Assembly: GCA_938034375.1 (NCBI GenBank)
Contig: CALHLB010000030.1
Location: forward strand, 1,220 to 65,219
Direction: 5' to 3'
Length of the DNA stretch: 64,000 nucleotides
Source: an uncultured Alphaproteobacteria bacterium
GTDB taxonomy: Bacteria; Pseudomonadota; Alphaproteobacteria; Rhizobiales; JACESI01
A program made the position numbers and the translations under genes. Below, one piece after another: positions 56,287-64,000 of the stretch (position 1 is the stretch's first letter; the number at the start of each line of letters is the position of its first letter). The notes beneath the pieces were generated by a model. It had not been told where the DNA came from and searched no databases. It saw nothing but the letters and a program-made list of their open reading frames with translations.

Positions 56287-56362
56287 GCCCAGGTAGCTCA
56301 GTTGGTAGAGCAAGGGATTGAAAATCCCTGTGTCGGTGGTTCGATTCCGCCCCTGGGCACCA
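56287..56362 (+). tRNA. tRNA-Phe (GAA)
   Basis: 76-nt cloverleaf read by hand. Acceptor GCCCAGG/CCTGGGC, D arm GCTC-AGTTGGTA-GAGC, anticodon arm AGGGA-TTGAAAA-TCCCT (anticodon GAA), T arm GGTGG-TTCGATT-CCGCC, encoded CCA. Confidence 0.95.
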
Positions 56363-57923
56363 TTTGACATTCCAGCATGTTATTTTCTCCTAAGACATTG
56401 AATGGTAAGGTGGTTTTTATAGTTCTATACCCTGTTTCACGGTGGTATGGCAGCGGGGCAGAAAACGCCAACCTTAGCACCAGTTTTTGCAAGTGAATGC
56501 CTCCATTTTCCCATATTTTATAAGGGTTTGAGAAGAATCGCATGGATAGTTCTAGCATTTCTGCTGCGGTGCTTTTTGGTTGAAAGCTTTTTTCAAGTTT
56601 TTCCGACAAAATAACCTTCTCATTTTCAAGCTGGTCTATCTTGCGATCAATAGCCTGAACAACGCGACTATTGGACGCATCAACTATCTTATCGAGATAC
56701 AAGTCAATCTGGCGATCCAGTTTCAAAAGGTCACGCCGCAACGCTTTGCGGATTTCATTGACCTGCTTTGTGCGCTGGTTCCAGATATCTTCAAGCATCT
56801 TTGTAATAAGCCGAAACAGGACTGTATTTGGACGCATATCTTTCAGGAGCGTTGCAAAATCTCCTTCAATGGTATCGCGTCGAATAGACTTGCCGTAGCT
56901 TGCACAGCCCTTTGTGTGGCATGTATAGTAAGCATAGCGTCTTCCTGTACAACTTTTCGACCAGCTGCCCCGCAACGGTTTCTCACAGTCGCCACAGGTC
57001 ACAAAACCACGAAGAGGGAAATCTTTTGCAATATCCTTACGAGCAGGAGCAAGAGCGCCCGCCTTACGCCGTTTTTGTATTTTCTCGAAAGTCGCAACAG
57101 AAATGATTTGAGGATGATTACCCTTGCGCTTTTTAACATCAAGCGTTTTGGAAAAGACAAAACCTTAATAAAGCGGATGGGTCATAATGTCTGTGACTTT
57201 TTGAAGCCGAATACCTCCATTGGGAAGTTGCTTGGGAAACTCGGGCTGACTTTCAAAGAAGCGTTTCACTTCTGTCTGCGTTGCAAAGCGACCCGCAGCA
57301 TACCCTTCCAAAGCCTCCTGAATGATAGAGGCAACAGGCTCATCACGAACGAGGACTTTACCCTCGTTCTTTGTCTTTTTGTATTTGTAGCCAACAGGCG
57401 CGGTATAAACCCAATACCCCGCCATAAGCCGCGCCCATGTACGATGGCGCGTTGTTTCAGCTACTTTCTCACGATAATGCTGTGCAGTAAGCGCCTGGAT
57501 GCCCTCAGACATGTTGCCATCAGCATCGCGCTTTACTTTGAAGCGCATGGACGGGCTATCTAGCAAAGCGCCCACTTCATCAAGCGCGTCCCGAAGGTCA
57601 AAGTAAACGCGGACATCGCGTGCAAGGCGGCTGATGTCGTCAATGAGAACAACGTATTGGACACCTGGCTTTTTCTTCTTGAGAAAAGCAAGCATATTTT
57701 GAACATCAGGACGATCTCTGAATTTTCCGGAAATACCTTCATCGGTGAATGTTTCAGCCACAGGAAAACCAACCTGTTTGGCGTATTCACGGCCTCGCGT
57801 TTCTTGAGACTGGATGCCGCTACCGTCTTTTATCTGTTTGGTATCCGACACACGCAGATAAAGGACAAACTCGTATTTTATGCTTGTATCGGTGTAATCA
57901 ATATATTGCTGTTCAAAATTCAT
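56298..57923 (-). pseudogene. large serine recombinase (integrase type) interrupted by one in-frame TAA
   Basis: N-terminal resolvase domain YLRVSDTKQ..LIDDISRLAR. Recombinase domain, then Cys-rich zinc ribbon TCGDCEKPL..YYTCHTKGC and a coiled coil. ORFs 57165-57923 and 56298-57002 are in the same frame, and the 54 codons between them are open. Single stop at 57165-57167. Confidence 0.85.
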
Positions 57924-58231
57924 ACATCAGTCCTTTCTTCAGGCCATGCCTCCTTTAGATTTTTGCTTGTATTGGTGTTTGCTACATCTGCAATCATTTT
58001 GACAACTTCGGGATGGAGCTTTTTATCTGTTCTATCTTCGGCGTTTTGTAGCGGATGAATGCCAAACCCCATATCCACAAATTGAACCATGATCGCCCAG
58101 AGGGTTTCAAGAAGTTCGACTTTCTTATCCTCTGGTATGTCATCGCTATCCAATAATGCTTGATACTTTTCGACATCAAATATCAGTGTTTTATAATGTT
58201 CATTTCCAATATTTTTTATTCCGTCATCCAC
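57920..58231 (-). CDS. hypothetical acidic protein translationally coupled to the large serine recombinase
   Basis: 103-aa ORF with a GTG start. Its stop overlaps the recombinase ATG (ATGA). No family recognised. Confidence 0.45.
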   Translation of the reverse strand: MDDGIKNIGNEHYKTLIFDVEKYQALLDSDDIPEDKKVELLETLWAIMVQFVDMGFGIHPLQNAEDRTDKKLHPEVVKMIADVANTNTSKNLKEAWPEERTDV

Positions 58232-58364
58232 GTTCCTTGTTCCTTTTAGACTTTAGGTTTTATTCATAGCTTGCTCCTTCCCTTCATAAGAACAAAAGAG
58301 AAACAAACTAGATCATCTTTTGCTCTTAGGCAAGAAAAAACGATTTTACGAAATGTCGGCTTAA

Positions 58365-58784
58365 TTAGAACTCTTGATCGTAACTTTGACTAAAGCCTTC
58401 TCCCTGCTCATACTCTATACTGGAAGACTGACTCTGCTCTTGAGAGTGCTCGGAAACATTTTCGAGGGTATTTGAAGGAGTGTTTTCAGAAGTGTTTTCG
58501 GGGGTATTCTCAGGAGCGCGTTCCTGATGATTGGATTTGGAATTTTCCTGATAAAGTTCGCGCGTTTTTGAACGGGCTTCACGGGCAAGCTCGGAAACAC
58601 GTAAAAGATCGCCGTTAGTGAATGCATTGGTATCGCGTAAATCACCCCTTTGATCGCGATATGTTTTGACGAATGTGGTCGTGTAATACGTCCCTTTATC
58701 GCTGTTATTTTCCCAGATTGTTGCTTTCAGATTACCATCACGTATAACGGACGTTGGTGGGGTAGAACCCCTAGTATTTCTCCT
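58365..58784 (-). pseudogene. 139-codon open frame without any canonical start codon (5'-damaged mobile-element gene?)
   Basis: Hand translation gives ..GSTPPTSVIRDGNLKATIWENNSDKGTYYTTTFVKTYRDQRGDLRDTNAFTNGDLLRVSELAREARSKTRELYQEN.. then an acidic S/E/N tail. AAGGAG sits at the 5' end, but there is no in-frame ATG/GTG/TTG. Confidence 0.35.
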
Positions 58785-59143
58785 TTATTTGGAATTTAGA
58801 CAATAGAAATCCCTTTCGTGAGAAATTTACTCTCTCACTATACTTTAAAAAATATATTTTATGGAATTTCTGTTAATAATTATACTTATGAAATATGACG
58901 AAAATATGCCTATTTCAACCAATGATAGCCAATTTTAGTCTTTTATATGTCAATTAATAAGGATAATATTCAGTTATACATTTAAAATATCTTAGATAAG
59001 GAAATTATAACTCTCGTACAGGTTTATAAAACTCAAATGCGAGTCTCTTGATTTCGTATAATAACAAATAAATTACTGCCTTTTCTCCTTCCGTAACCGC
59101 GCGATTTGTTCATTTTTGCGTTCTGTATAGAATTGAAAGAAGC

Positions 59144-59353
59144 TCATAAATTCAAGCTCATCATAAAATAGGATATGGGAACATCAAAATAATCCGCCAT
59201 AAGATAGAGCTTGGCCGCATTGATGCGGGTTTTTCCTTTCTCATATTTTTGTATCTGCTGAAAGGTAACTCCCAAAGCTTCCGCCAATTGCCGTAATGTT
59301 ACTTTTTTAAACACCCGTAATGCCCGTAATTTCTGAGCAAAATGCTTGTTCAC
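59144..59353 (-). CDS. XRE-family helix-turn-helix transcriptional regulator
   Basis: 69 aa. LRQLAEALGVTFQQIQKYEKGKTRI is a canonical Cro/C1-type HTH. Confidence 0.75.
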   Translation of the reverse strand: MNKHFAQKLRALRVFKKVTLRQLAEALGVTFQQIQKYEKGKTRINAAKLYLMADYFDVPISYFMMSLNL

Positions 59354-59410
59354 TCAAGCTCGTATTCATATCTTCTCCTTCACTATGGTTTAAAAAATTC
59401 ACCCAATCAT

Positions 59411-60040
59411 TCACCGCAAACCCTGCCGCTTTAAAGCCCGTTGCAGGGTAATGCGGGAAACACCGCAGGCCTTGGCAACCTGCTCATAGCTTTGCCCCTC
59501 ATCACGTATGGCGATATGAGCGCGGATAACATCATCGGGGGTGAGCAAAAACCTGCGACCGCCCACACGCCCGCGCTTTCTGGCCGCTTCAAGGCCGCTC
59601 ATGGTGTTTTCATGGATAAGATCGCGGGTAAACTGCGCCACGGCTGCAAAGATATGATAAACCATGCGTCCGCCCGGTGTGCTGGTGTCCAACCCTTCGG
59701 TCAGAGAACAGAAATAAATATTATCGCGTTCAAACTGTTCCAAAAGCTGCGCCAGATGCGAGACGGAACGCCCCAGCCGATCAAGCTTATAAACCACCAG
59801 CATATCACCGGCACGCAACATGGCCATAGCATCATCCAGCCCCTCACGCCCCGCTTTTGCACCGGAAATCTTGTCACAGAAAATAGCATCACATCCAACC
59901 TGCTTTAAAACATCAAGCTGTCTGTCAAGATTCTGGTCATTGGTGGAAACACGGGCATAGCCGATTTTACGCCCTGCATTACGCGCGGTATTTACAGAAA
60001 GGGTGAGAGGCGTGATTGCATTGCCGATCAGATGTGTCAT
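59411..60040 (-). CDS. small serine recombinase (resolvase/DNA invertase, Hin-Gin-Tn3 resolvase family)
   Basis: IGYARVSTNDQNLDRQ catalytic-Ser motif, VYKLDRLGRS, C-terminal HTH GVSRITLQRALKR. Visibly more GC-rich than its flanks. Confidence 0.9.
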   Translation of the reverse strand: MTHLIGNAITPLTLSVNTARNAGRKIGYARVSTNDQNLDRQLDVLKQVGCDAIFCDKISGAKAGREGLDDAMAMLRAGDMLVVYKLDRLGRSVSHLAQLLEQFERDNIYFCSLTEGLDTSTPGGRMVYHIFAAVAQFTRDLIHENTMSGLEAARKRGRVGGRRFLLTPDDVIRAHIAIRDEGQSYEQVAKACGVSRITLQRALKRQGLR

Positions 60041-60353
60041 GGCAAACCTTTCTTATGGTCACAAAGGAAGGTTTTTGATCGGCCTGCATGGTTCGCCTTA
60101 TTCTCCTTTAAAAAGACGCATTTTCCGTTAAAACGGGTTATTTTATAGTATATATTTAACATAATGTAATATATTTTGCAATATAAGCGCAAACCTTGGT
60201 TTATGAACAAGCATAAACACTTTAAAGATAACAATACAACTAAAATTTTACAGTCATTGTTATTTTATGTTACAAATCCATCAATAATAAAACAAAATAT
60301 ACTTTTAAATATGTTTGGGGTGTGTCTCATAACTTTTTAAGTTTGGAGGCACT

Positions 60354-60843
60354 ATGTCTTTAGAAAACGAAAAACTATCGAGACGTGACGTACTGAAAGG
60401 CCTTGGGGCTTTGGGGTTGGTGTCTGCTGCTGCGGGCGTTTTTGGCACGCAAGATGCGTCGGCACAAAAGAAGGCAAAAAAAAACCTATACGCCCTTACG
60501 AATCGATCAGCTTGGCCCCTCAGATGGCGGTCATAAAACTCCAAAAGAAGCAATTGCCGAATCGCATCAACAGCTTGTTTTACATTATGGTGAAAATATT
60601 CTCGATGCTGATATCACAGCAGAGTTATTAAGAGAAGAAGATATTCCTGCCACCGCCTATTCTGCCACCGCCTATTCTGGTGGCCCAAAGGGTAAAATAT
60701 ATGCCTTATTAAATGGAAGGCCAATTGCAAGATACGATCAAAAAGGACTCAATACAGTTGCAGCTTTTGGTTTAGGTGAAATATATAAGAGCAAAGTGGG
60801 TGGCGTTAACGTGGCTAAACTTGATCCTGGCGAACCTAGTTAA
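60354..60843 (+). pseudogene. Tat-signal secreted protein gene split by a frameshift in an A9 tract
   Basis: The frame from 60354 encodes MSLENEKLSRRDVLKGLGALGLVSAAAGVF..ASAQ (twin-arginine signal) and stops at 60536. The +1 frame continues open to 60843. The frames meet at A9 (60476-60484). Confidence 0.55.
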
Positions 60844-61331
60844 GGGCCAATTTTCGGCGTTACTGGATTTGGGGTATTGTTGAGCGCATTGAAATAATCC
60901 GGCTCTAATATTCTTTCAACAAAAGCATGATCAGCAGCTTCGTAAGCTAGCATGTCTTTATCATCTTGGCTTAAATCCTTGAATAAAGCCCATTCCGTTT
61001 TTAAACGCTCTTGCGGATTGGTGATGTTTTGCGCATCCACTATGCCCTGTATAAATTCTTCCAGTGATGCTTCTGAAGCTATAACGGCTTCTTCATGTAC
61101 ATTAAGATAGTTTGAATGGATATTGCCGTCATTTGATTGAACTGTTGAGATTCCCTGCACCTGTTCTTTATTCTGACGCGTTGATTCTTTACGTTCGGCT
61201 CTTTCAACATCAGTATCCAACGCACCAGATCGCAAGCGTTGCTGCATTTCATCCAAAGTTTTCTCTTTGGCCGTGATCTCCGCTTCTTTGCGGTTCGCCT
61301 GATCCTGCAATGTTTCGACTTTACCGTTCAT
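60840..61331 (-). CDS. hypothetical protein (island), coupled to upstream gene
   Basis: ATG at 61329-61331 (MNGKVETLQDQ...) overlaps the stop of the upstream ORF (ATGAACGGTAA). The longer 298-aa ORF-track version is an out-of-frame extension. Confidence 0.45.
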   Translation of the reverse strand: MNGKVETLQDQANRKEAEITAKEKTLDEMQQRLRSGALDTDVERAERKESTRQNKEQVQGISTVQSNDGNIHSNYLNVHEEAVIASEASLEEFIQGIVDAQNITNPQERLKTEWALFKDLSQDDKDMLAYEAADHAFVERILEPDYFNALNNTPNPVTPKIGP

Positions 61332-61959
61332 GCTTCCAAATATTGAATTTTCTGTTATTCTCCGCAGACACCAAATATAGGCCGTTATGGTCATTAATCT
61401 TATGCCACTCTTCCGGCGGAATGCCGGATTTGAGCAATAAGATATAATGCGCATGATTATCGGGATCAATTTCGCCGCCTGCCTGAATAATAAGGCGCAT
61501 CTCCTTGATGGCATCAAGCTCTTCTTCATATTTTCTGATGGTTTTTTGAAGGGCGTTAATCTCATCATTAAGGTCATTGACCTGTTCTTTAAGAATATCA
61601 TTGTCTTGTTGTAATTGCCTGATAAGTTCTTGGAAATGTCGGTCTTCTGCCGCTTTTTTATCACGTTCTTTGGCTTTTCGATTGGCGCGAATAACGTCTG
61701 CTGCACCCGTGATGGCAATGCGGCCACCAAGTGCATTTGCGGCTTCTGCGAATGAAAGCTCCTGCATCATCACTTGCGTGGATTTATTATGATCGTGGGG
61801 TGCTTCTGTTGTAAGGAATTGATCCAGTCGTTCGCCCATTTCCAAGGCGAGAGCCGCAAGGCTTTTTTCATCAATACCTATAGGTATTGCGGAGTTCAAA
61901 CGGTTTCCGTTTGAACTTGTTTTCATAAAACTATCCTTTAAGTCACCTGAAAGCGACAT
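61321..61959 (-). CDS. hypothetical coiled-coil protein (island)
   Basis: 212-aa ORF. Central heptad-rich region ELIRQLQQDNDILKEQVNDLNDEINALQKTIRKYEEELDAIKE. Confidence 0.5.
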   Translation of the reverse strand: MSLSGDLKDSFMKTSSNGNRLNSAIPIGIDEKSLAALALEMGERLDQFLTTEAPHDHNKSTQVMMQELSFAEAANALGGRIAITGAADVIRANRKAKERDKKAAEDRHFQELIRQLQQDNDILKEQVNDLNDEINALQKTIRKYEEELDAIKEMRLIIQAGGEIDPDNHAHYILLLKSGIPPEEWHKINDHNGLYLVSAENNRKFNIWKHER

Positions 61960-62127
61960 ACCATCTTCCCCGTCATCTATACCTGCCTCTTATCGGGCAG
62001 TCTTCCTTGTGTAATAGTATAGGCGATTAACGTTATGGTAACTTTAATTTTCAGTTGGATTTTATATGCATTTTATCGATTTATATTTGTCTGTTCTTCC
62101 CTGAAATATCTATGATATAATCTTTTT

Positions 62128-62385
62128 ATGAATGATGATGAAAATATACATGAATTAATGATGAAACATCTCAAGGCGCTTCGGAATGAAGTTGCGGATT
62201 TAAGACGCGAATCCATCCATGAATTGCACAGCCTTTCCGAACGTGTTGGGGCGCTTGAATCCCACATGACGGGATTATTTAAAACACTGACCAATGTTGG
62301 TGGAGATGTCGAAAAATTCAAATTTGATATGCGGCAGGTTAAATCACGGCTTAATCTAACTGATACGCAAGGCTCGCAGACCTGA
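62128..62385 (+). CDS. hypothetical small helical protein (island)
   Basis: 85-aa ORF, divergent from 61959, with predicted helices only. Confidence 0.4.
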   Translation: MNDDENIHELMMKHLKALRNEVADLRRESIHELHSLSERVGALESHMTGLFKTLTNVGGDVEKFKFDMRQVKSRLNLTDTQGSQT

Positions 62386-62416
62386 ACGCGTGAATTGCTA
62401 CATCATCTACTGAACG

Positions 62417-62929
62417 ATGAAACACAGCTACAAAGACTACATACCCCTGACAAGCCCTATGCATGAAGAATTAATGCTGCATAAGGCAAAAACAACCATG
62501 AGCGGCACGAGAATCTATAACTACATGAAGGAGAATGATCTTCTTCCGCCTGATACTGGCATTACAATCAAGAAAATCGAAAGCTGGTTTACACAAATTG
62601 CAAAATCCGTGAACAAGACCGACTTTGATGCTGTCCTTTCCGCCTATAGAACAATTACCGTCTCTGATGAAGTTTTGACGAAGGGGCAAGCCAGAGTGCG
62701 TTTAGACCCCAGTTTTTCAGAAAAAGTGGACAAGGTTCTGAAAGCACGTCCGAATCTAAGCACCCGCCTGTTATTAAGAGCACCTGATACGCCTGCGGGA
62801 TTAACAGAGAGGCAGGTTACGCTCATCCGGCGTGGCAGGCTCAAATCCATACATCAGGATCATAAACACTTTTTGGAAAAAGCACTGAACCTGAATGAGG
62901 CTGATGAAACCTCGGACAATATTGTTTGA
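62417..62929 (+). CDS. hypothetical protein (island)
   Basis: 170-aa ORF following 62128-62385 on the same strand. No motif recognised. Confidence 0.42.
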   Translation: MKHSYKDYIPLTSPMHEELMLHKAKTTMSGTRIYNYMKENDLLPPDTGITIKKIESWFTQIAKSVNKTDFDAVLSAYRTITVSDEVLTKGQARVRLDPSFSEKVDKVLKARPNLSTRLLLRAPDTPAGLTERQVTLIRRGRLKSIHQDHKHFLEKALNLNEADETSDNIV

Positions 62930-63232
62930 TGAACATTTTTCTCCTCTTCCCTAAAAAGAAGAAGGTATTACTGCCGAAAATGTTTAGGTGAATTTTCAAG
63001 CCGTAGTGAAATAGAAATCATTCACGAAAGACTGCTTATAGCCGGACAGTCAGTTGCCAAGCGCGGCTGGGAAAAAGGCGAGTAGATACTTGCGGGTTTT
63101 AGGCAAAAGCCAAGCGGAATGGCAAGCGTGATTGTCGTATAACCAGACATTCATTTATTTCGCAATATATGGCAGTTTAGAGCCCAAACTACCGCCATGT
63201 GATGTACTGCAAAGAGGCTTCAATTTAAAAAA

Positions 63233-63676
63233 CTAAGAAAGAGAAATGTATAATTTATTTAAAAAATCACGCTGCTCGTTTGAGAAAGACGGTTCATTCA
63301 TATATTCTTCAAAAGAGTAATCAAAAATATTTATCAATTTTATTTTTTGAATAATTTCTTTTCTTCCAAAAAGAATGTAATATTCATTATCTTCAGGCTT
63401 CCATATAAATAGATCACAATCAAAAAACTTGATTAATATATTTTTATGTGATTCTTCAAAAATTTCGCCCGATAAACTCTCAATGCTATTTGCATTAAAC
63501 AAAGTAGGTTTTTGATTAAATTCAAAAGAGCAGAATTCGATAAAATCGATATTTATTTGTTTTGATATTTCAAGTAAATCTTGTTTGGATGGAAATTCAG
63601 GAGCTAGAAAAAAAACAAAATTATCATTTTTTATTTTATTTACATCAATATCGTTATTTTTTAAATATTCTATCAT
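63233..63676 (-). CDS. putative immunity protein cognate to upstream toxin domain
   Basis: ATG at 63674-63676 lies 2 nt after the stop of the upstream toxin-like ORF. 147 aa, acidic, very AT-rich codons, no signal peptide or TM segment. Confidence 0.5.
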   Translation of the reverse strand: MIEYLKNNDIDVNKIKNDNFVFFLAPEFPSKQDLLEISKQINIDFIEFCSFEFNQKPTLFNANSIESLSGEIFEESHKNILIKFFDCDLFIWKPEDNEYYILFGRKEIIQKIKLINIFDYSFEEYMNEPSFSNEQRDFLNKLYISLS

Positions 63677-63678
63677 TC

Positions 63679-64000
63679 TCAAAACCCTAAGTTTACAGGA
63701 TTATACCTAATTTCAGTTTGTCTGCCATTTGGTTTACGAATTTGTAGAGTGGATCGCCCATCACTGCTACCAGGCCGGACAGTTATTTTATCACCATTTT
63801 CTAAGCTCCCTGTGCGCCCGGAACCATATTTTGTGTCAATGTCTTTAACATTATCAGGTTTTAGTGAATCAAAATCTTTATTGGCCTCATCAAATCCTCC
63901 ATCTTTTTCACCATGTCGAGTTTTCCCTTTTGTTTTCTGTTCGACACCAGCTTCTTCTTCCAGTTCTTCTTGTTTATTCTTCTGTTGTTCTTCTTTTGCC
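63679..64000 (-). CDS. C-terminal toxin-like domain of a larger protein (5' end beyond window)
   Basis: Hand translation gives ..AKEEQQKNKQEELEEEAGVEQKTKGKTRHGEKDGGFDEANKDFDSLKPDNVKDIDTKYGSGRTGSLENGDKITVRPGSSDGRSTLQIRKPNGRQTEIRYNPVNLGF*. The frame is open to the window edge. Confidence 0.55.
   Translation of the reverse strand, partial: AKEEQQKNKQEELEEEAGVEQKTKGKTRHGEKDGGFDEANKDFDSLKPDNVKDIDTKYGSGRTGSLENGDKITVRPGSSDGRSTLQIRKPNGRQTEIRYNPVNLGF

What the first reader, a model, noticed from the sequence alone, without database searches (positions are those of the whole stretch)
56287..64000. tRNA-Phe-associated genomic island built around serine rather than tyrosine recombinases
Conserved housekeeping genes (infA-maf-yacG-tRNA-Phe) end exactly at the tRNA 3' end. 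From there to the window edge every gene is accessory or mobile-type: a large serine recombinase, a small serine recombinase with an XRE regulator, two disrupted genes, hypothetical coiled-coil genes and a toxin/immunity pair. These are separated by unusually long AT-rich spacers (58785-59143 and 60041-60353). tRNA 3' ends are classic targets of tyrosine integrases, so a large serine recombinase sitting directly on a tRNA junction is atypical and could define an undescribed family of integrative elements. No tyrosine integrase is visible in the 7.6 kb seen.
Basis: partly seen in the sequence, partly recalled or inferred. Interest (0 to 1): 0.75.

Follow-up and report, generated by a model that had tools for sequence, protein, structure and literature searches.

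The report
Decayed serine-integrase island at tRNA-Phe
A broken-down mobile DNA island sits directly after a tRNA-Phe gene, and its now inactivated integrase belongs to a large, essentially undescribed group of alphaproteobacterial serine integrases that almost always abut tRNA genes, a habit usually credited to tyrosine integrases only.

Summary
tRNA-Phe(GAA) is at 56287-56362. A canonical large serine recombinase (LSR: Resolvase + Recombinase + Zn-ribbon) lies antisense at 57923..56298, and its last 65 nt overlap the tRNA 3' end. This copy is dead, because an in-frame TAA (57165-57167) replaces a near-invariant Ala. At least one neighbouring gene is also broken and two more look frameshifted, so the window holds a fossil.

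The LSR belongs to a deep alphaproteobacterial clade. In 75 of 83 genome loci and 57 of 70 decidable metagenome loci, the LSR ORF runs in the same frame into the antisense 3' end of a tRNA gene. Twenty anticodons and eight amino-acid identities are used, and LSR subclades track tRNA identity. A roughly 100-150 aa partner ORF overlaps the LSR start in about 90% of loci. About half the loci carry a type IV coupling protein, and one 20.6-kb view shows a relaxase, so these are mobilizable or conjugative islands. No tyrosine integrase lies on the LSR side in any locus.

The far end (attR) and the crossover point were never found, and activity is untested. The literature offers only 14 unverified cases (2020) and the small serine recombinase of phage phiRSM. 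It is a new variant of a known kind.

The parts
56287..56362 (+). tRNA-Phe(GAA), the integration target (attL side). It is intact with a well-paired cloverleaf.
   Evidence: ARAGORN. It is identical in a second assembly of the same population, L104, whose contig ends at window position 56359.
56298..57923 (-). Large serine recombinase pseudogene of 541 codons. An in-frame TAA at 57165-57167 replaces near-invariant Ala253. The last 21 codons are the antisense of the tRNA-Phe 3' 65 nt.
   Evidence: Translation. Pfam gives Resolvase, Recombinase and Zn_ribbon_recom. Alignment A1 shows catalytic S26 invariant, A253 at 90% or more, and C-termini of the form C[KE]M[VA]PxxG[FLI]EPPT, which is tRNA antisense.
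56363..56372 (.). Conserved junction motif directly 3' of the tRNA CCA. On the + strand it reads TTTGACATTC; on the LSR strand it reads GAATGTCAAA|TGG. It is either the outer part of the element's att arm or the tRNA 3' trailer supplied by the element.
   Evidence: Across 78 distinct junctions, position -9 is A in 77/78 and position -1 is A in 74/78, whatever amino acids are encoded. The terminal Cys codon is TGT 28: TGC 5, against 104: 381 elsewhere in the same genes.
57920..58231 (-). Partner ORF (cluster 'cl1', 103 aa here) whose stop overlaps the LSR start. It is a candidate accessory or directionality factor of unknown fold.
   Evidence: A homologous ORF lies immediately upstream of the LSR, overlapping it by about 1-4 nt, in 88 of 96 loci and 68 of 74 metagenome loci. 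It has no Pfam, NCBIfam, PADLOC or PHROG hit.
58365..58784 (-). Backbone gene 'cl8' (motif IRDGxLKATIWEN) with a lost start codon. The Shine-Dalgarno AGGAGA (58784-58779) is followed by AGG (58772-58770) where ATG is expected.
   Evidence: Six-frame translation and codon listing. It is 57-58% identical to ORFs in the same position in L005 and L002. The cluster occurs in 17 loci about 480 nt upstream of the LSR.
58785..59143 (.). AT-rich spacer (GC 0.273).
59144..59353 (-). XRE-family HTH regulator (69 aa).
   Evidence: Pfam HTH_3 3.1e-14. Homologues sit next to small recombinases in other family loci.
59411..60040 (-). Small serine recombinase (Resolvase + HTH, 209 aa), a recurrent backbone gene ('cl6') of the element family.
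   Evidence: Pfam Resolvase 4.5e-44 and HTH_23 1.5e-07. It is 51-55% identical to ORFs 4-9 kb upstream of the LSR in 19 loci.
60041..60353 (.). AT-rich spacer (GC 0.297). Homology to the family backbone ends here.
60354..60843 (+). Tat-signal ORF (60354-60536) continued in another frame (60403-60843). It is probably a frameshifted cargo gene.
   Evidence: ORF list. TAT_signal E 1.1e-4, and nothing else is recognised.
60840..61959 (-). Two overlapping coiled-coil ORFs (298 aa and 212 aa) in different frames. This is probably one frameshifted orphan gene.
   Evidence: ORF list. Only low-complexity coiled-coil hits were found.
62128..62929 (+). Two orphan ORFs (85 aa coiled-coil and 170 aa).
   Evidence: Searches show no significant family.
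63233..64000 (-). A very AT-rich 149-aa orphan ORF (GC 0.233), plus the C-terminal 106 codons of an ORF that runs off the window.
   Evidence: The only signal is a weak PHROG toxin hit, E 0.0025.

Best explanation
Window 56298-60040 at least, and possibly through 64000 and beyond, is the tRNA-proximal end of a decayed integrative mobilizable or conjugative element. The element belongs to an alphaproteobacterial family whose integrase is a large serine recombinase.

In this family the LSR gene sits at the very end of the element and is transcribed towards the target tRNA. Its last codons, a conserved A-rich 10-nt motif and then the antisense of the tRNA 3' end, coincide with the element's att arm. 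Integration therefore leaves an intact tRNA immediately followed by element DNA. A small partner ORF overlaps the LSR start and so may be translationally coupled to it (inferred); it may help with directionality or targeting. Functional members also carry a type IV coupling protein, a small resolvase/invertase, ArdA, TA and defence cargo, and in one locus a relaxase.

The copy in this window can no longer move. It has a nonsense codon in the LSR, a lost start codon in a backbone gene, and no coupling protein.

Shown: the anatomy, the family-wide tRNA abutment, and the gene content. Inferred: that the LSR catalyses the tRNA integration, and where it cuts.
For: - The LSR has all three LSR domains and the catalytic Ser.
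- Its ORF overlaps the antisense tRNA 3' end in 75 of 83 genome-derived loci and in 57 of 70 decidable metagenome loci.
- The reading frame relative to CCA is always the same: 27 of 27 aligned homologues end in tRNA-antisense peptide.
- Twenty anticodons and eight amino-acid identities are used, and LSR subclades track tRNA identity (Ser, Arg and Leu clades; the window groups with Phe and Leu-CAG users).
- The junction shows DNA-level constraint: an A-rich motif, and a TGT codon bias of 28:5 against 104:381 elsewhere.
- The partner ORF is present in 88/96 and 68/74 loci.
- A T4SS coupling protein lies about 1.8 kb upstream in 46 loci and in 29 of 45 metagenome loci.
- A relaxase, ArdA, a TA pair, and SIR2 and RT genes appear in a 20.6-kb view.
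- No tyrosine integrase lies on the LSR side within 10 kb in about 170 loci, within 16.6 kb in L117, or within 20.6 kb in L201.
- Tyrosine integrases found just beyond partial tRNA fragments belong to other elements stacked at the same tRNA. One is a prophage (portal E 8e-115), and none of these downstream elements shares backbone genes.
- The island is absent downstream of the tRNA-Phe in the seven syntenic relatives where a tRNA-Phe was found (L084-L090).
- Assemblies often break at this junction: 20 of 80 metagenome contigs, plus L104 and L110.
- Precedent exists: the small serine recombinase of phiRSM integrates at a 13-nt tRNA-Ser 3'-end core in reverse orientation (PMC3816273).
Against: - No attR, meaning no displaced tRNA fragment or inverted copy of the junction arm, was found in the window or in any locus. 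Strand and shuffle controls showed no enrichment. Element ends, size and crossover position are therefore unknown.
- No circular or attP form was recovered.
- No close homologue exists in isolated phages or plasmids that could show an unintegrated site. All were below 25% identity over most of the protein, apart from one partial match of 38.7% over 46% of the query on a 1.19-Mb Tritonibacter mobilis replicon (H17).
- The junction motif could equally be a tRNA 3'-trailer requirement.
- The relatives used for the 'empty site' comparison are distant (about 70% nt identity).
- The window copy is a pseudogene, so nothing about activity can be learned from it.
- The distal 4 kb has no homology to the family backbone.
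Confidence: 0.65

Rival explanations
1. The islands are inserted into the tRNA by a tyrosine integrase at the unseen far end. The attP would be flanked by the tyrosine integrase on one side and the LSR on the other. The LSR would then have a different job, such as resolution, inversion or secondary-site integration.
For: In 9 loci a P4-type tyrosine integrase with arm-type direct repeats starts 110-180 nt beyond a partial tRNA 3' fragment that follows the LSR. In L017, the LSR end, the 16-nt tRNA end and the following sequence form a 14-bp inverted repeat around a 7-bp spacer (13 of 14 positions complementary), which is the geometry of a tyrosine-recombinase core. Far ends were never seen.
Against: The elements that start with those tyrosine integrases are unrelated to the LSR elements. 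Only one of 22 shares any backbone family (one cl6 resolvase in L082, which has no adjacent tyrosine integrase); none of the nine that start with a tyrosine integrase does. L093 is a prophage with portal and primase genes. Fragment lengths (13-16, 23-25 and 46-50 nt) follow the known tyrosine-integrase sublocations, as expected for later arrivals stacked at the tRNA. No tyrosine integrase lies within 10-20.6 kb on the LSR side in any locus. A passenger gene would not be expected to keep an in-frame overlap with the att region across 41-64% protein divergence and 20 target anticodons.
Confidence: 0.13
2. Only the LSR module (LSR + partner ORF + one to three genes, about 3-4.5 kb) is the mobile unit. 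The rest of the 7.6 kb, at least 60041-64000, would belong to one or more older, unrelated islands pushed outward at a tRNA hot spot.
For: Homology of the window to the family backbone stops at 60040. Base composition is patchy, from 0.23 to 0.53. Tandem stacking at these tRNAs is common. Two weak candidate tRNA-like fragments lie 2.3-2.8 kb upstream of the LSR, in L106 and L149.
Against: Those candidate fragments are no better than the strand control. In many loci the coupling-protein operon runs contiguously on the same strand into the partner ORF and the LSR. The small resolvase at 60040..59411 is a recurrent family gene.
Confidence: 0.15
3. This is not a mobile element at all. It would be an ordinary variable chromosomal region that happens to follow a tRNA gene and contains degenerate recombinase genes.
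For: Overall GC equals that of the host. No flanking repeat was found. Several genes are pseudogenes.
Against: The same LSR-tRNA arrangement recurs in hundreds of unrelated genomes at different tRNAs, alongside conjugation and defence cargo. Synteny with relatives ends exactly at the tRNA.
Confidence: 0.02

Closest known systems
phiRSM-type integrase (small serine recombinase of Ralstonia filamentous phages; Askora et al., reviewed in PMC3816273)
   Same: A serine recombinase integrates at the extreme 3' end of a tRNA gene. The att core (13 nt, TGGCGGAGAGGGT) is the tRNA-Ser 3' end in reverse orientation and lies next to the recombinase gene. The Ser-targeting LSR loci here begin with the same 13 nt.
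   Different: The phiRSM enzyme is a resolvase/invertase-size protein without Recombinase, zinc-ribbon or coiled-coil domains. It is carried on a 9-kb inovirus in Betaproteobacteria. There is no partner ORF and there are no conjugation genes.
Phage large serine integrases (TP901-1, phiC31, Bxb1, A118)
   Same: They share the domain architecture Resolvase-Recombinase-Zn ribbon with a coiled-coil insert. TP901-1 Int is the best solved-structure and phage match.
   Different: Identity is only about 23-24%. From general knowledge, their known targets are protein-coding or intergenic sites, not tRNA genes, and their attP does not lie inside their own coding 3' end.
tRNA-targeting tyrosine-integrase islands and ICEs (P4-type integrases; for example, from general knowledge, ICEMlSymR7A at tRNA-Phe)
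   Same: The target is the 3' part of a tRNA gene. The integrase gene sits at the element end next to the intact tRNA. The tRNA is preserved, target identity switches within a family, and elements stack in tandem at the same tRNA.
   Different: The recombinase family and chemistry are unrelated. Tyrosine-integrase islands leave a 16-50-nt displaced tRNA fragment at the other end, and none was found here.
S-Int integrative elements at t(m)RNA genes flagged by TIGER (Mageeney et al. 2020, PMC7192596)
   Same: That study computationally mapped 14 of 297 serine-integrase elements to t(m)RNA genes. Its supplementary tree lists small (6-39 kb) elements labelled with single tRNA letters. These are probably members of the same phenomenon.
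   Different: The authors treated them as too few to trust ('experimental proof will be required'). They did not describe a clade, the in-frame overlap, the partner ORF or the conjugative content. I could not verify that those cases belong to this clade.
Conjugative or mobilizable elements of Firmicutes that use large serine recombinases (Tn5397 TndX, Tn4451 TnpX, SCCmec Ccr; general knowledge; TnpX and Ccr appear as weak matches)
   Same: An LSR acts as the integrase of an element that transfers by conjugation or mobilization.
   Different: The hosts and targets differ (not tRNA), and sequence relatedness is very low.

Membership tests
Large serine recombinase (serine integrase) | N-terminal resolvase catalytic domain with the nucleophilic serine | tested here: met
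   PF00239 scores 2.3e-22. S26, R24 and other core residues are invariant in the 28-sequence alignment.
Large serine recombinase (serine integrase) | Recombinase domain (PF07508) followed by the zinc beta-ribbon domain (PF13408) | tested here: met
   With the stop bridged, PF07508 scores 28.2 bits (cut-off 21.1) and PF13408 scores 33.9 bits (cut-off 25.3). PF07508 is weak in the clade and absent in P0008.
Large serine recombinase (serine integrase) | Coiled-coil motif embedded in the zinc-ribbon domain | tested here: inconclusive
   Residues of about 370-460 give only generic coiled-coil hits. No structure was predicted.
Large serine recombinase (serine integrase) | Intact ORF and attP x attB recombination activity | tested here: not met
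   An in-frame TAA at 57165-57167 replaces Ala253. Activity cannot be tested with these tools.
tRNA-integrated genomic island (Islander signature) | Intact tRNA gene at one end with the integrase gene adjacent | tested here: met
tRNA-integrated genomic island (Islander signature) | Displaced tRNA 3' fragment as a direct repeat at the other end | tested here: inconclusive
   None is present in 56400-64000, and the contig ends about 1.4 kb past the window. None was found in family loci within 10-20 kb either.
tRNA-integrated genomic island (Islander signature) | Sporadic distribution: the same tRNA is unoccupied in related genomes | tested here: met
   In seven of the nine syntenic relatives (L084-L090) a tRNA-Phe was found, followed directly by unrelated genes. 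They are distant (about 70% nt identity), so this is weak evidence.
Integrative conjugative or mobilizable element | Relaxase and/or type IV coupling protein inside the element | tested here: not met
   The window shows no homology to the family's coupling protein or to any conjugation gene. The family itself has a T4CP in 46 loci plus 29 of 45 metagenome loci, and a relaxase in L201. The window copy is therefore a remnant.
tRNA-abutting alphaproteobacterial LSR clade (defined in this work) | Full-length similarity to clade members | tested here: met
   It is 45-64% identical over 95-100% of its length to the listed homologues.
tRNA-abutting alphaproteobacterial LSR clade (defined in this work) | ORF 3' end reads in frame into the antisense 3' end of a tRNA gene, preceded by the A-rich junction motif | tested here: met
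   The window reads ...GAATGTCAAA|TGGTGCCCAGGGG..., with the same register as 78 other junctions.
tRNA-abutting alphaproteobacterial LSR clade (defined in this work) | Partner ORF overlapping the LSR start | tested here: met
   57920-58231 belongs to cluster cl1, which occurs in 88 loci.

The most novel reading that the evidence does not exclude
This clade is a genuine, large family of tRNA-gene-specific large serine integrases. Each enzyme would recognise the 3' part of one tRNA gene. The family has re-targeted itself across at least 20 anticodons, and it carries its attP arm inside its own coding 3' end. A dedicated small partner protein overlaps the integrase start and so may be translationally coupled to it. 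If so, the rule that only tyrosine integrases target tRNA genes would be overturned, and a set of naturally re-targeted, host-factor-independent integrases with universally conserved landing sites would become available.
Probability: 0.55. Interest if true: 0.78.

Novelty: new variant of a known kind. Interest (0 to 1): 0.62.

Why it matters
Textbook and database practice assumes that tRNA genes are targets of tyrosine integrases. Islander states that serine integrases are not known to use them.

A deep, abundant LSR clade that sits on tRNA 3' ends would provide the natural comparison needed for an old question: why are tRNA genes favoured? The candidate reasons are sequence conservation, dyad symmetry, and something specific to tyrosine-recombinase chemistry (see the discussion in PMC7192596).

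There is also a practical side. LSRs are the preferred enzymes for large-cargo genome insertion. A family whose members have switched between many conserved tRNA targets could show how LSR specificity is re-programmed, and it would offer attB sites present in almost any bacterium.

These elements also appear to move defence genes (SIR2, reverse transcriptase-protease, Shedu, OLD-family, AIPR) and anti-restriction genes among marine and soil Alphaproteobacteria.

The specific copy in this window is only a fossil. Its value is as the pointer to the family.

Tried and rejected
1. Extending the window. Two island proteins are not on record. The source contig is 65,446 nt. A second assembly stops at the tRNA. 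An exact-pattern scan of metagenome contigs found nothing.

2. Finding attR.
- blastn-short of the tRNA plus junction against the window and against the island-side flank of about 120 loci.
- 3'-anchored mismatch-tolerant searches with reversed-query and opposite-strand controls.
- A search for an inverted copy of the junction arm.
- Walking 16.6 kb (L117) and 20.6 kb (L201) into two elements.
All were negative or no better than the controls.

3. Circular or attP forms. None of 29 fully held contigs has terminal overlaps. There are no close homologues in phage or plasmid collections.

4. Hybrid-tRNA signature. Stem mismatches in LSR-adjacent tRNAs are not elevated, and T-arm comparison of tRNA-Phe genes was uninformative.

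5. Partial tRNA fragments after some LSRs. I first read these as attP sites. I rejected that reading because they border tyrosine-integrase elements of other kinds.

6. The L091 'tRNA-Phe/tRNA-Leu' junction, considered as an insertion event. It looks like a metagenome chimera.

7. A conserved region about 5 kb upstream in 33 loci, considered as a possible RNA. It has no Rfam family.

8. A second LSR fragment in L166, considered as a tandem junction. It is an internal remnant with no junction.

9. Function of the cargo ORFs. Pfam, NCBIfam, PADLOC and PHROGs gave nothing reliable.

10. Supplementary data of PMC7192596. Taxon labels suggest serine-recombinase elements at tRNAs, but the stored tree is truncated, so clade identity could not be checked.

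Full report
**1. What is in the window**

ARAGORN finds a single tRNA, tRNA-Phe(GAA), at 56287-56362 on the + strand. Upstream lie hisD, UPF0262, an LMW phosphatase, infA, maf and yacG.

Nine contigs from other organisms encode an identical InfA. They are about 70% identical at the nucleotide level. They keep that gene block (yacG is not called in every locus), and in seven of them (L084-L090) it is followed by a tRNA-Phe. After the tRNA they carry unrelated genes and no recombinase. The end of synteny at the tRNA 3' end is therefore real, although the relatives are too distant to serve as a true empty site.

**2. The large serine recombinase (LSR)**

A 541-codon frame runs on the minus strand from 57923 to 56298.

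- Domains: with the stop bridged it has Resolvase (2.3e-22), Recombinase (28.2 bits, cut-off 21.1) and Zn_ribbon_recom (33.9 bits, cut-off 25.3). It also has the invariant catalytic serine.
- Correction 1: codon 253 is TAA (57165-57167). That position is Ala in at least 90% of 27 homologues (Y252-A253-G254). This copy is a pseudogene unless the assembly is wrong.
- Correction 2: the ORF overlaps the tRNA rather than lying beside it. Its last 21 codons are the antisense of the tRNA-Phe 3' 65 nt.

**3. The rest of the 7.6 kb**

- A 103-aa ORF (57920-58231) overlaps the LSR start.
- A conserved gene at 58784..58365 has a good Shine-Dalgarno sequence followed by AGG where ATG is expected.
- An XRE gene and a small serine recombinase follow.
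- These are flanked by two AT-rich spacers with GC 0.27 and 0.30.
- Beyond 60040 there is a Tat-signal ORF split over two frames, two overlapping coiled-coil ORFs, two orphan ORFs, a 149-aa ORF with GC 0.23, and a truncated ORF at the window edge.
- None of these distal ORFs has a reliable family assignment. The 'toxin/immunity pair' rests on one weak PHROG hit.
- Island GC equals host GC overall (0.412 vs 0.415) but is very patchy.
- The tRNA-Phe 3' part is not repeated anywhere in the window.
- The source contig is only 65,446 nt long, so the far end is not available.
- A contig from another run of the same population ends 3 nt before the tRNA 3' end.

**4. The family**

The LSR has more than 1,600 detectable homologues. 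The best is 64% identical, and the named sources are alphaproteobacterial: Rhizobiaceae, Hoeflea, Ahrensia, Shimia, Phaeobacter and many Rhodobacterales.

*C-terminal signature.* The alignment showed that essentially all 27 chosen homologues end in ...C[K/E]M[V/A]PxxG[F/L/I]EPPT. This is what one obtains by translating the antisense of a tRNA acceptor and T arm, with the A of the ATG codon placed just outside CCA.

*Genomic context.*
- Three of three first look-ups showed a tRNA overlapping the LSR 3' end.
- 75 of 83 loci did so after a scan of GTDB species representatives.
- 57 of 70 decidable loci did so in an independent scan of metagenome contigs.
- IMG/VR adds tRNA-Ala and tRNA-Ser cases at 41-46% identity.

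*Targets.* Arg (ACG, CCG, TCG, CCT, TCT), Ser (TGA, CGA, GCT, GGA), Leu (CAG, GAG, TAG, TAA, CAA), Phe, Val, Thr (TGT, GGT), Lys and Ala.

*Phylogeny.* A neighbour-joining tree shows Ser, Arg and Leu clades, with the window LSR among Phe and Leu-CAG users. The LSR therefore co-diversifies with its target, as integrase subfamilies do.

*tRNA integrity.* The adjacent tRNAs are well formed.

*Assembly breaks.* Twenty of 80 metagenome contigs stop within 120 nt of the LSR end, as do L104 and L110. This is what strain-level insertion polymorphism produces in assemblies.

**5. The junction is constrained at the DNA level**

Across 78 distinct junctions, the 10 nt before the antisense CCA are A-rich whatever they encode. 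Position -9 is A in 77/78 and position -1 is A in 74/78.

Where a Cys codon occupies -7..-5, it is TGT 28 times and TGC 5 times. Elsewhere in the same genes the ratio is 104:381.

Two readings fit. The motif may be the outer part of the element's att arm, or it may be the U-rich 3' trailer that the element must supply to the tRNA. Either way, the sequence directly 3' of CCA is element DNA under selection.

**6. Element content**

I clustered ORFs on the island side of 96 loci.

- A 100-150-aa ORF overlaps the LSR start in 88 loci (cl1; the window's 57920-58231). It is also present in 68 of 74 metagenome loci. It has no known domain.
- A VirD4/TraG-type coupling protein (T4SS-DNA_transf 3.8e-35) lies about 1.8 kb upstream in 46 loci and in 29 of 45 metagenome loci. 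It is often in one co-directional gene string that ends in cl1-LSR.
- A small resolvase (cl6, the window's 60040..59411) recurs 4-9 kb away in 19 loci. It is paired with a small ORF (cl10), and the pair occurs in either orientation.
- ArdA, ParDE, OLD-family, Shedu, AIPR, SIR2 and RT-protease genes appear as cargo.
- A 20.6-kb view (L201) runs LSR-cl1-T4CP ... resolvase ... SIR2, RT, ArdA, TA and relaxase, and is still not at the end.

These are integrative mobilizable or conjugative elements. The window shares cl1, cl8, XRE and the resolvase with them. It has no coupling protein, and homology stops at 60040. It is a stripped remnant, and the distal 4 kb may belong to something else.

**7. Who does the integrating?**

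The main rival is a tyrosine integrase at the unseen far end.

*What prompted the rival.* Some LSRs are followed by only a partial tRNA 3' fragment of 13-16, 23-25 or 46-50 nt. In nine such loci a P4-type tyrosine integrase (Arm-DNA-bind_3 + Phage_integrase) starts 110-180 nt further on, preceded by arm-type direct repeats. In L017 the junction even forms a 14-bp inverted repeat around a 7-bp spacer (13 of 14 positions complementary), which is the geometry of a tyrosine-recombinase core.

*Why I read these as stacked, unrelated elements.*
- The downstream elements share essentially no gene families with the LSR-element backbone: only one of 22 does (a single cl6 resolvase in L082), and none of the nine that begin with a tyrosine integrase.
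- L093 is a prophage with portal (8e-115) and primase genes.
- Others carry phage or P4-like replication genes.
- The fragment lengths match the known tyrosine-integrase sublocations within tRNA genes.
- No tyrosine integrase occurs on the LSR side in about 170 loci (10 kb each), nor in 16.6 kb of L117, nor in 20.6 kb of L201.

These junctions therefore look like later tyrosine-integrase elements inserted into the tRNA that the LSR element had left intact, pushing the LSR element outward. They say nothing about where the LSR cuts.

**8. What I could not establish**

I found no attR in any locus, by direct-repeat, anchored-mismatch or inverted-arm searches, each with controls. I also found no circular form. 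The crossover point, the element sizes and the amount of tRNA carried by the element remain unknown. The LSR's catalytic role is inferred from four observations:
- its position at the element end;
- the conserved in-frame overlap with the tRNA;
- its co-diversification with the target;
- the absence of any alternative integrase.

**9. Literature**

- The TIGER paper found 14 of 297 S-Int elements at t(m)RNA genes, called this unreported, and asked for experimental proof. It also noted a putatively 'promiscuous' S-Int clade in Alpha- and Betaproteobacteria (PMC7192596). Its supplementary tree lists serine-recombinase elements labelled with tRNA letters, but the stored tree is truncated.
- The one proven precedent is the small serine recombinase of phiRSM. 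Its 13-nt att core is the tRNA-Ser 3' end in reverse orientation (PMC3816273).
- Searches for a description of this clade, or of LSR-bearing ICEs at tRNAs in Alphaproteobacteria, found nothing.
- Known phage LSRs are at most about 24% identical.

**10. Verdict**

The copy in this window is a fossil. I rate it a new variant of a known kind: serine-integrase elements, and tRNA-targeted islands. Interest is moderate to high because of the size and regularity of the family and its bearing on integrase target choice. That interest is tempered by the lack of mapped ends and of any functional test.

Noticed in passing
L017:11500-11560; also L094 and L100 (junction after the LSR): In L017, the LSR end plus 16 nt of the tRNA-Thr 3' end and the following sequence form TGTGAAATGGTGCC-CCCACAC-GGCACCATATCACA. 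This is a 14-bp inverted repeat around a 7-bp spacer, with 13 of 14 positions complementary. L094 and L100 have 6-bp arms with the same 7-bp spacing. It looks like a tyrosine-recombinase core at the T-stem/acceptor boundary, but the outer arm includes the conserved LSR-end motif.
   Followed up: partly
L008, L014, L015, L038 versus L001, L016, L049, L057 (cl6-cl10 gene pair, 4-9 kb upstream of the LSR): The small resolvase and its divergently transcribed neighbour occur as a unit in both orientations relative to the LSR. This suggests an invertible segment controlled by the small recombinase.
   Followed up: no
L093:1922-11922; L040, L057, L095, L096, L176, L180, L196: P4-type tyrosine integrases lie next to a displaced tRNA fragment, with their N-terminus facing it and two direct 8-11-nt repeats (arm-type sites) in between. 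In L093 the element is a prophage (portal, primase). In these cases the integrase lies at the fragment end, not at the intact-tRNA end.
   Followed up: partly
L010:8171-8242: The tRNA-Arg(CCG) next to this LSR lacks 5 nt of the 3' acceptor strand (…CGGG-CCA). It is either a damaged target gene or an assembly error at the junction.
   Followed up: no
L091:11204-11372 versus L084: A contig from the same species as L084 diverges inside the tRNA-Phe T arm and continues into a tRNA-Leu(TAG). It is probably a metagenome chimera formed through the conserved GGTTCGA segment.
   Followed up: partly
L121, L122, L125, L127, L128, L130, L147, L171, L188 and others; also L104 and L110: Twenty of 80 metagenome contigs end within 120 nt of the LSR stop, which is inside the tRNA. 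Independent assemblies of the window population and of the TARA element do the same. This is consistent with occupied and empty alleles coexisting in the population.
   Followed up: partly
L201:12944-17895; L003:1-537; L001:1-1074; L106:2405-4168: Cargo of family members is rich in defence genes: SIR2_2 next to a reverse transcriptase with a trypsin domain, Shedu SduA, an OLD-family ATPase-nuclease, and AIPR. There are also ArdA anti-restriction genes and ParDE or HigBA-like toxin-antitoxin pairs.
   Followed up: no
L149:60-110 and L149:446-796: In a 4.5-kb contig, a 13/16 match to the tRNA-Phe 3' end is followed by a T-arm-like hairpin, 2.8 kb upstream of the LSR, with an H-NS-like gene in between. 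It could mark a 4.4-kb mini-element, but it is statistically no better than the strand control.
   Followed up: partly
window:63233-63682: This 149-aa ORF has GC 0.233, far below the host (0.415) and everything around it. It has no homologue in any library searched.
   Followed up: partly
L166:3772-4089: An internal remnant of a second family LSR (residues of about 400-500) lies 6 kb upstream of the intact LSR at tRNA-Phe. This suggests decay of an earlier occupant of the same site.
   Followed up: partly
P0008 and other clade members (Pfam results): The Recombinase domain PF07508 scores only 26-28 bits in the clade and is missed altogether in P0008. Surveys that require both PF00239 and PF07508 to call a serine integrase will under-count this family.
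   Followed up: partly
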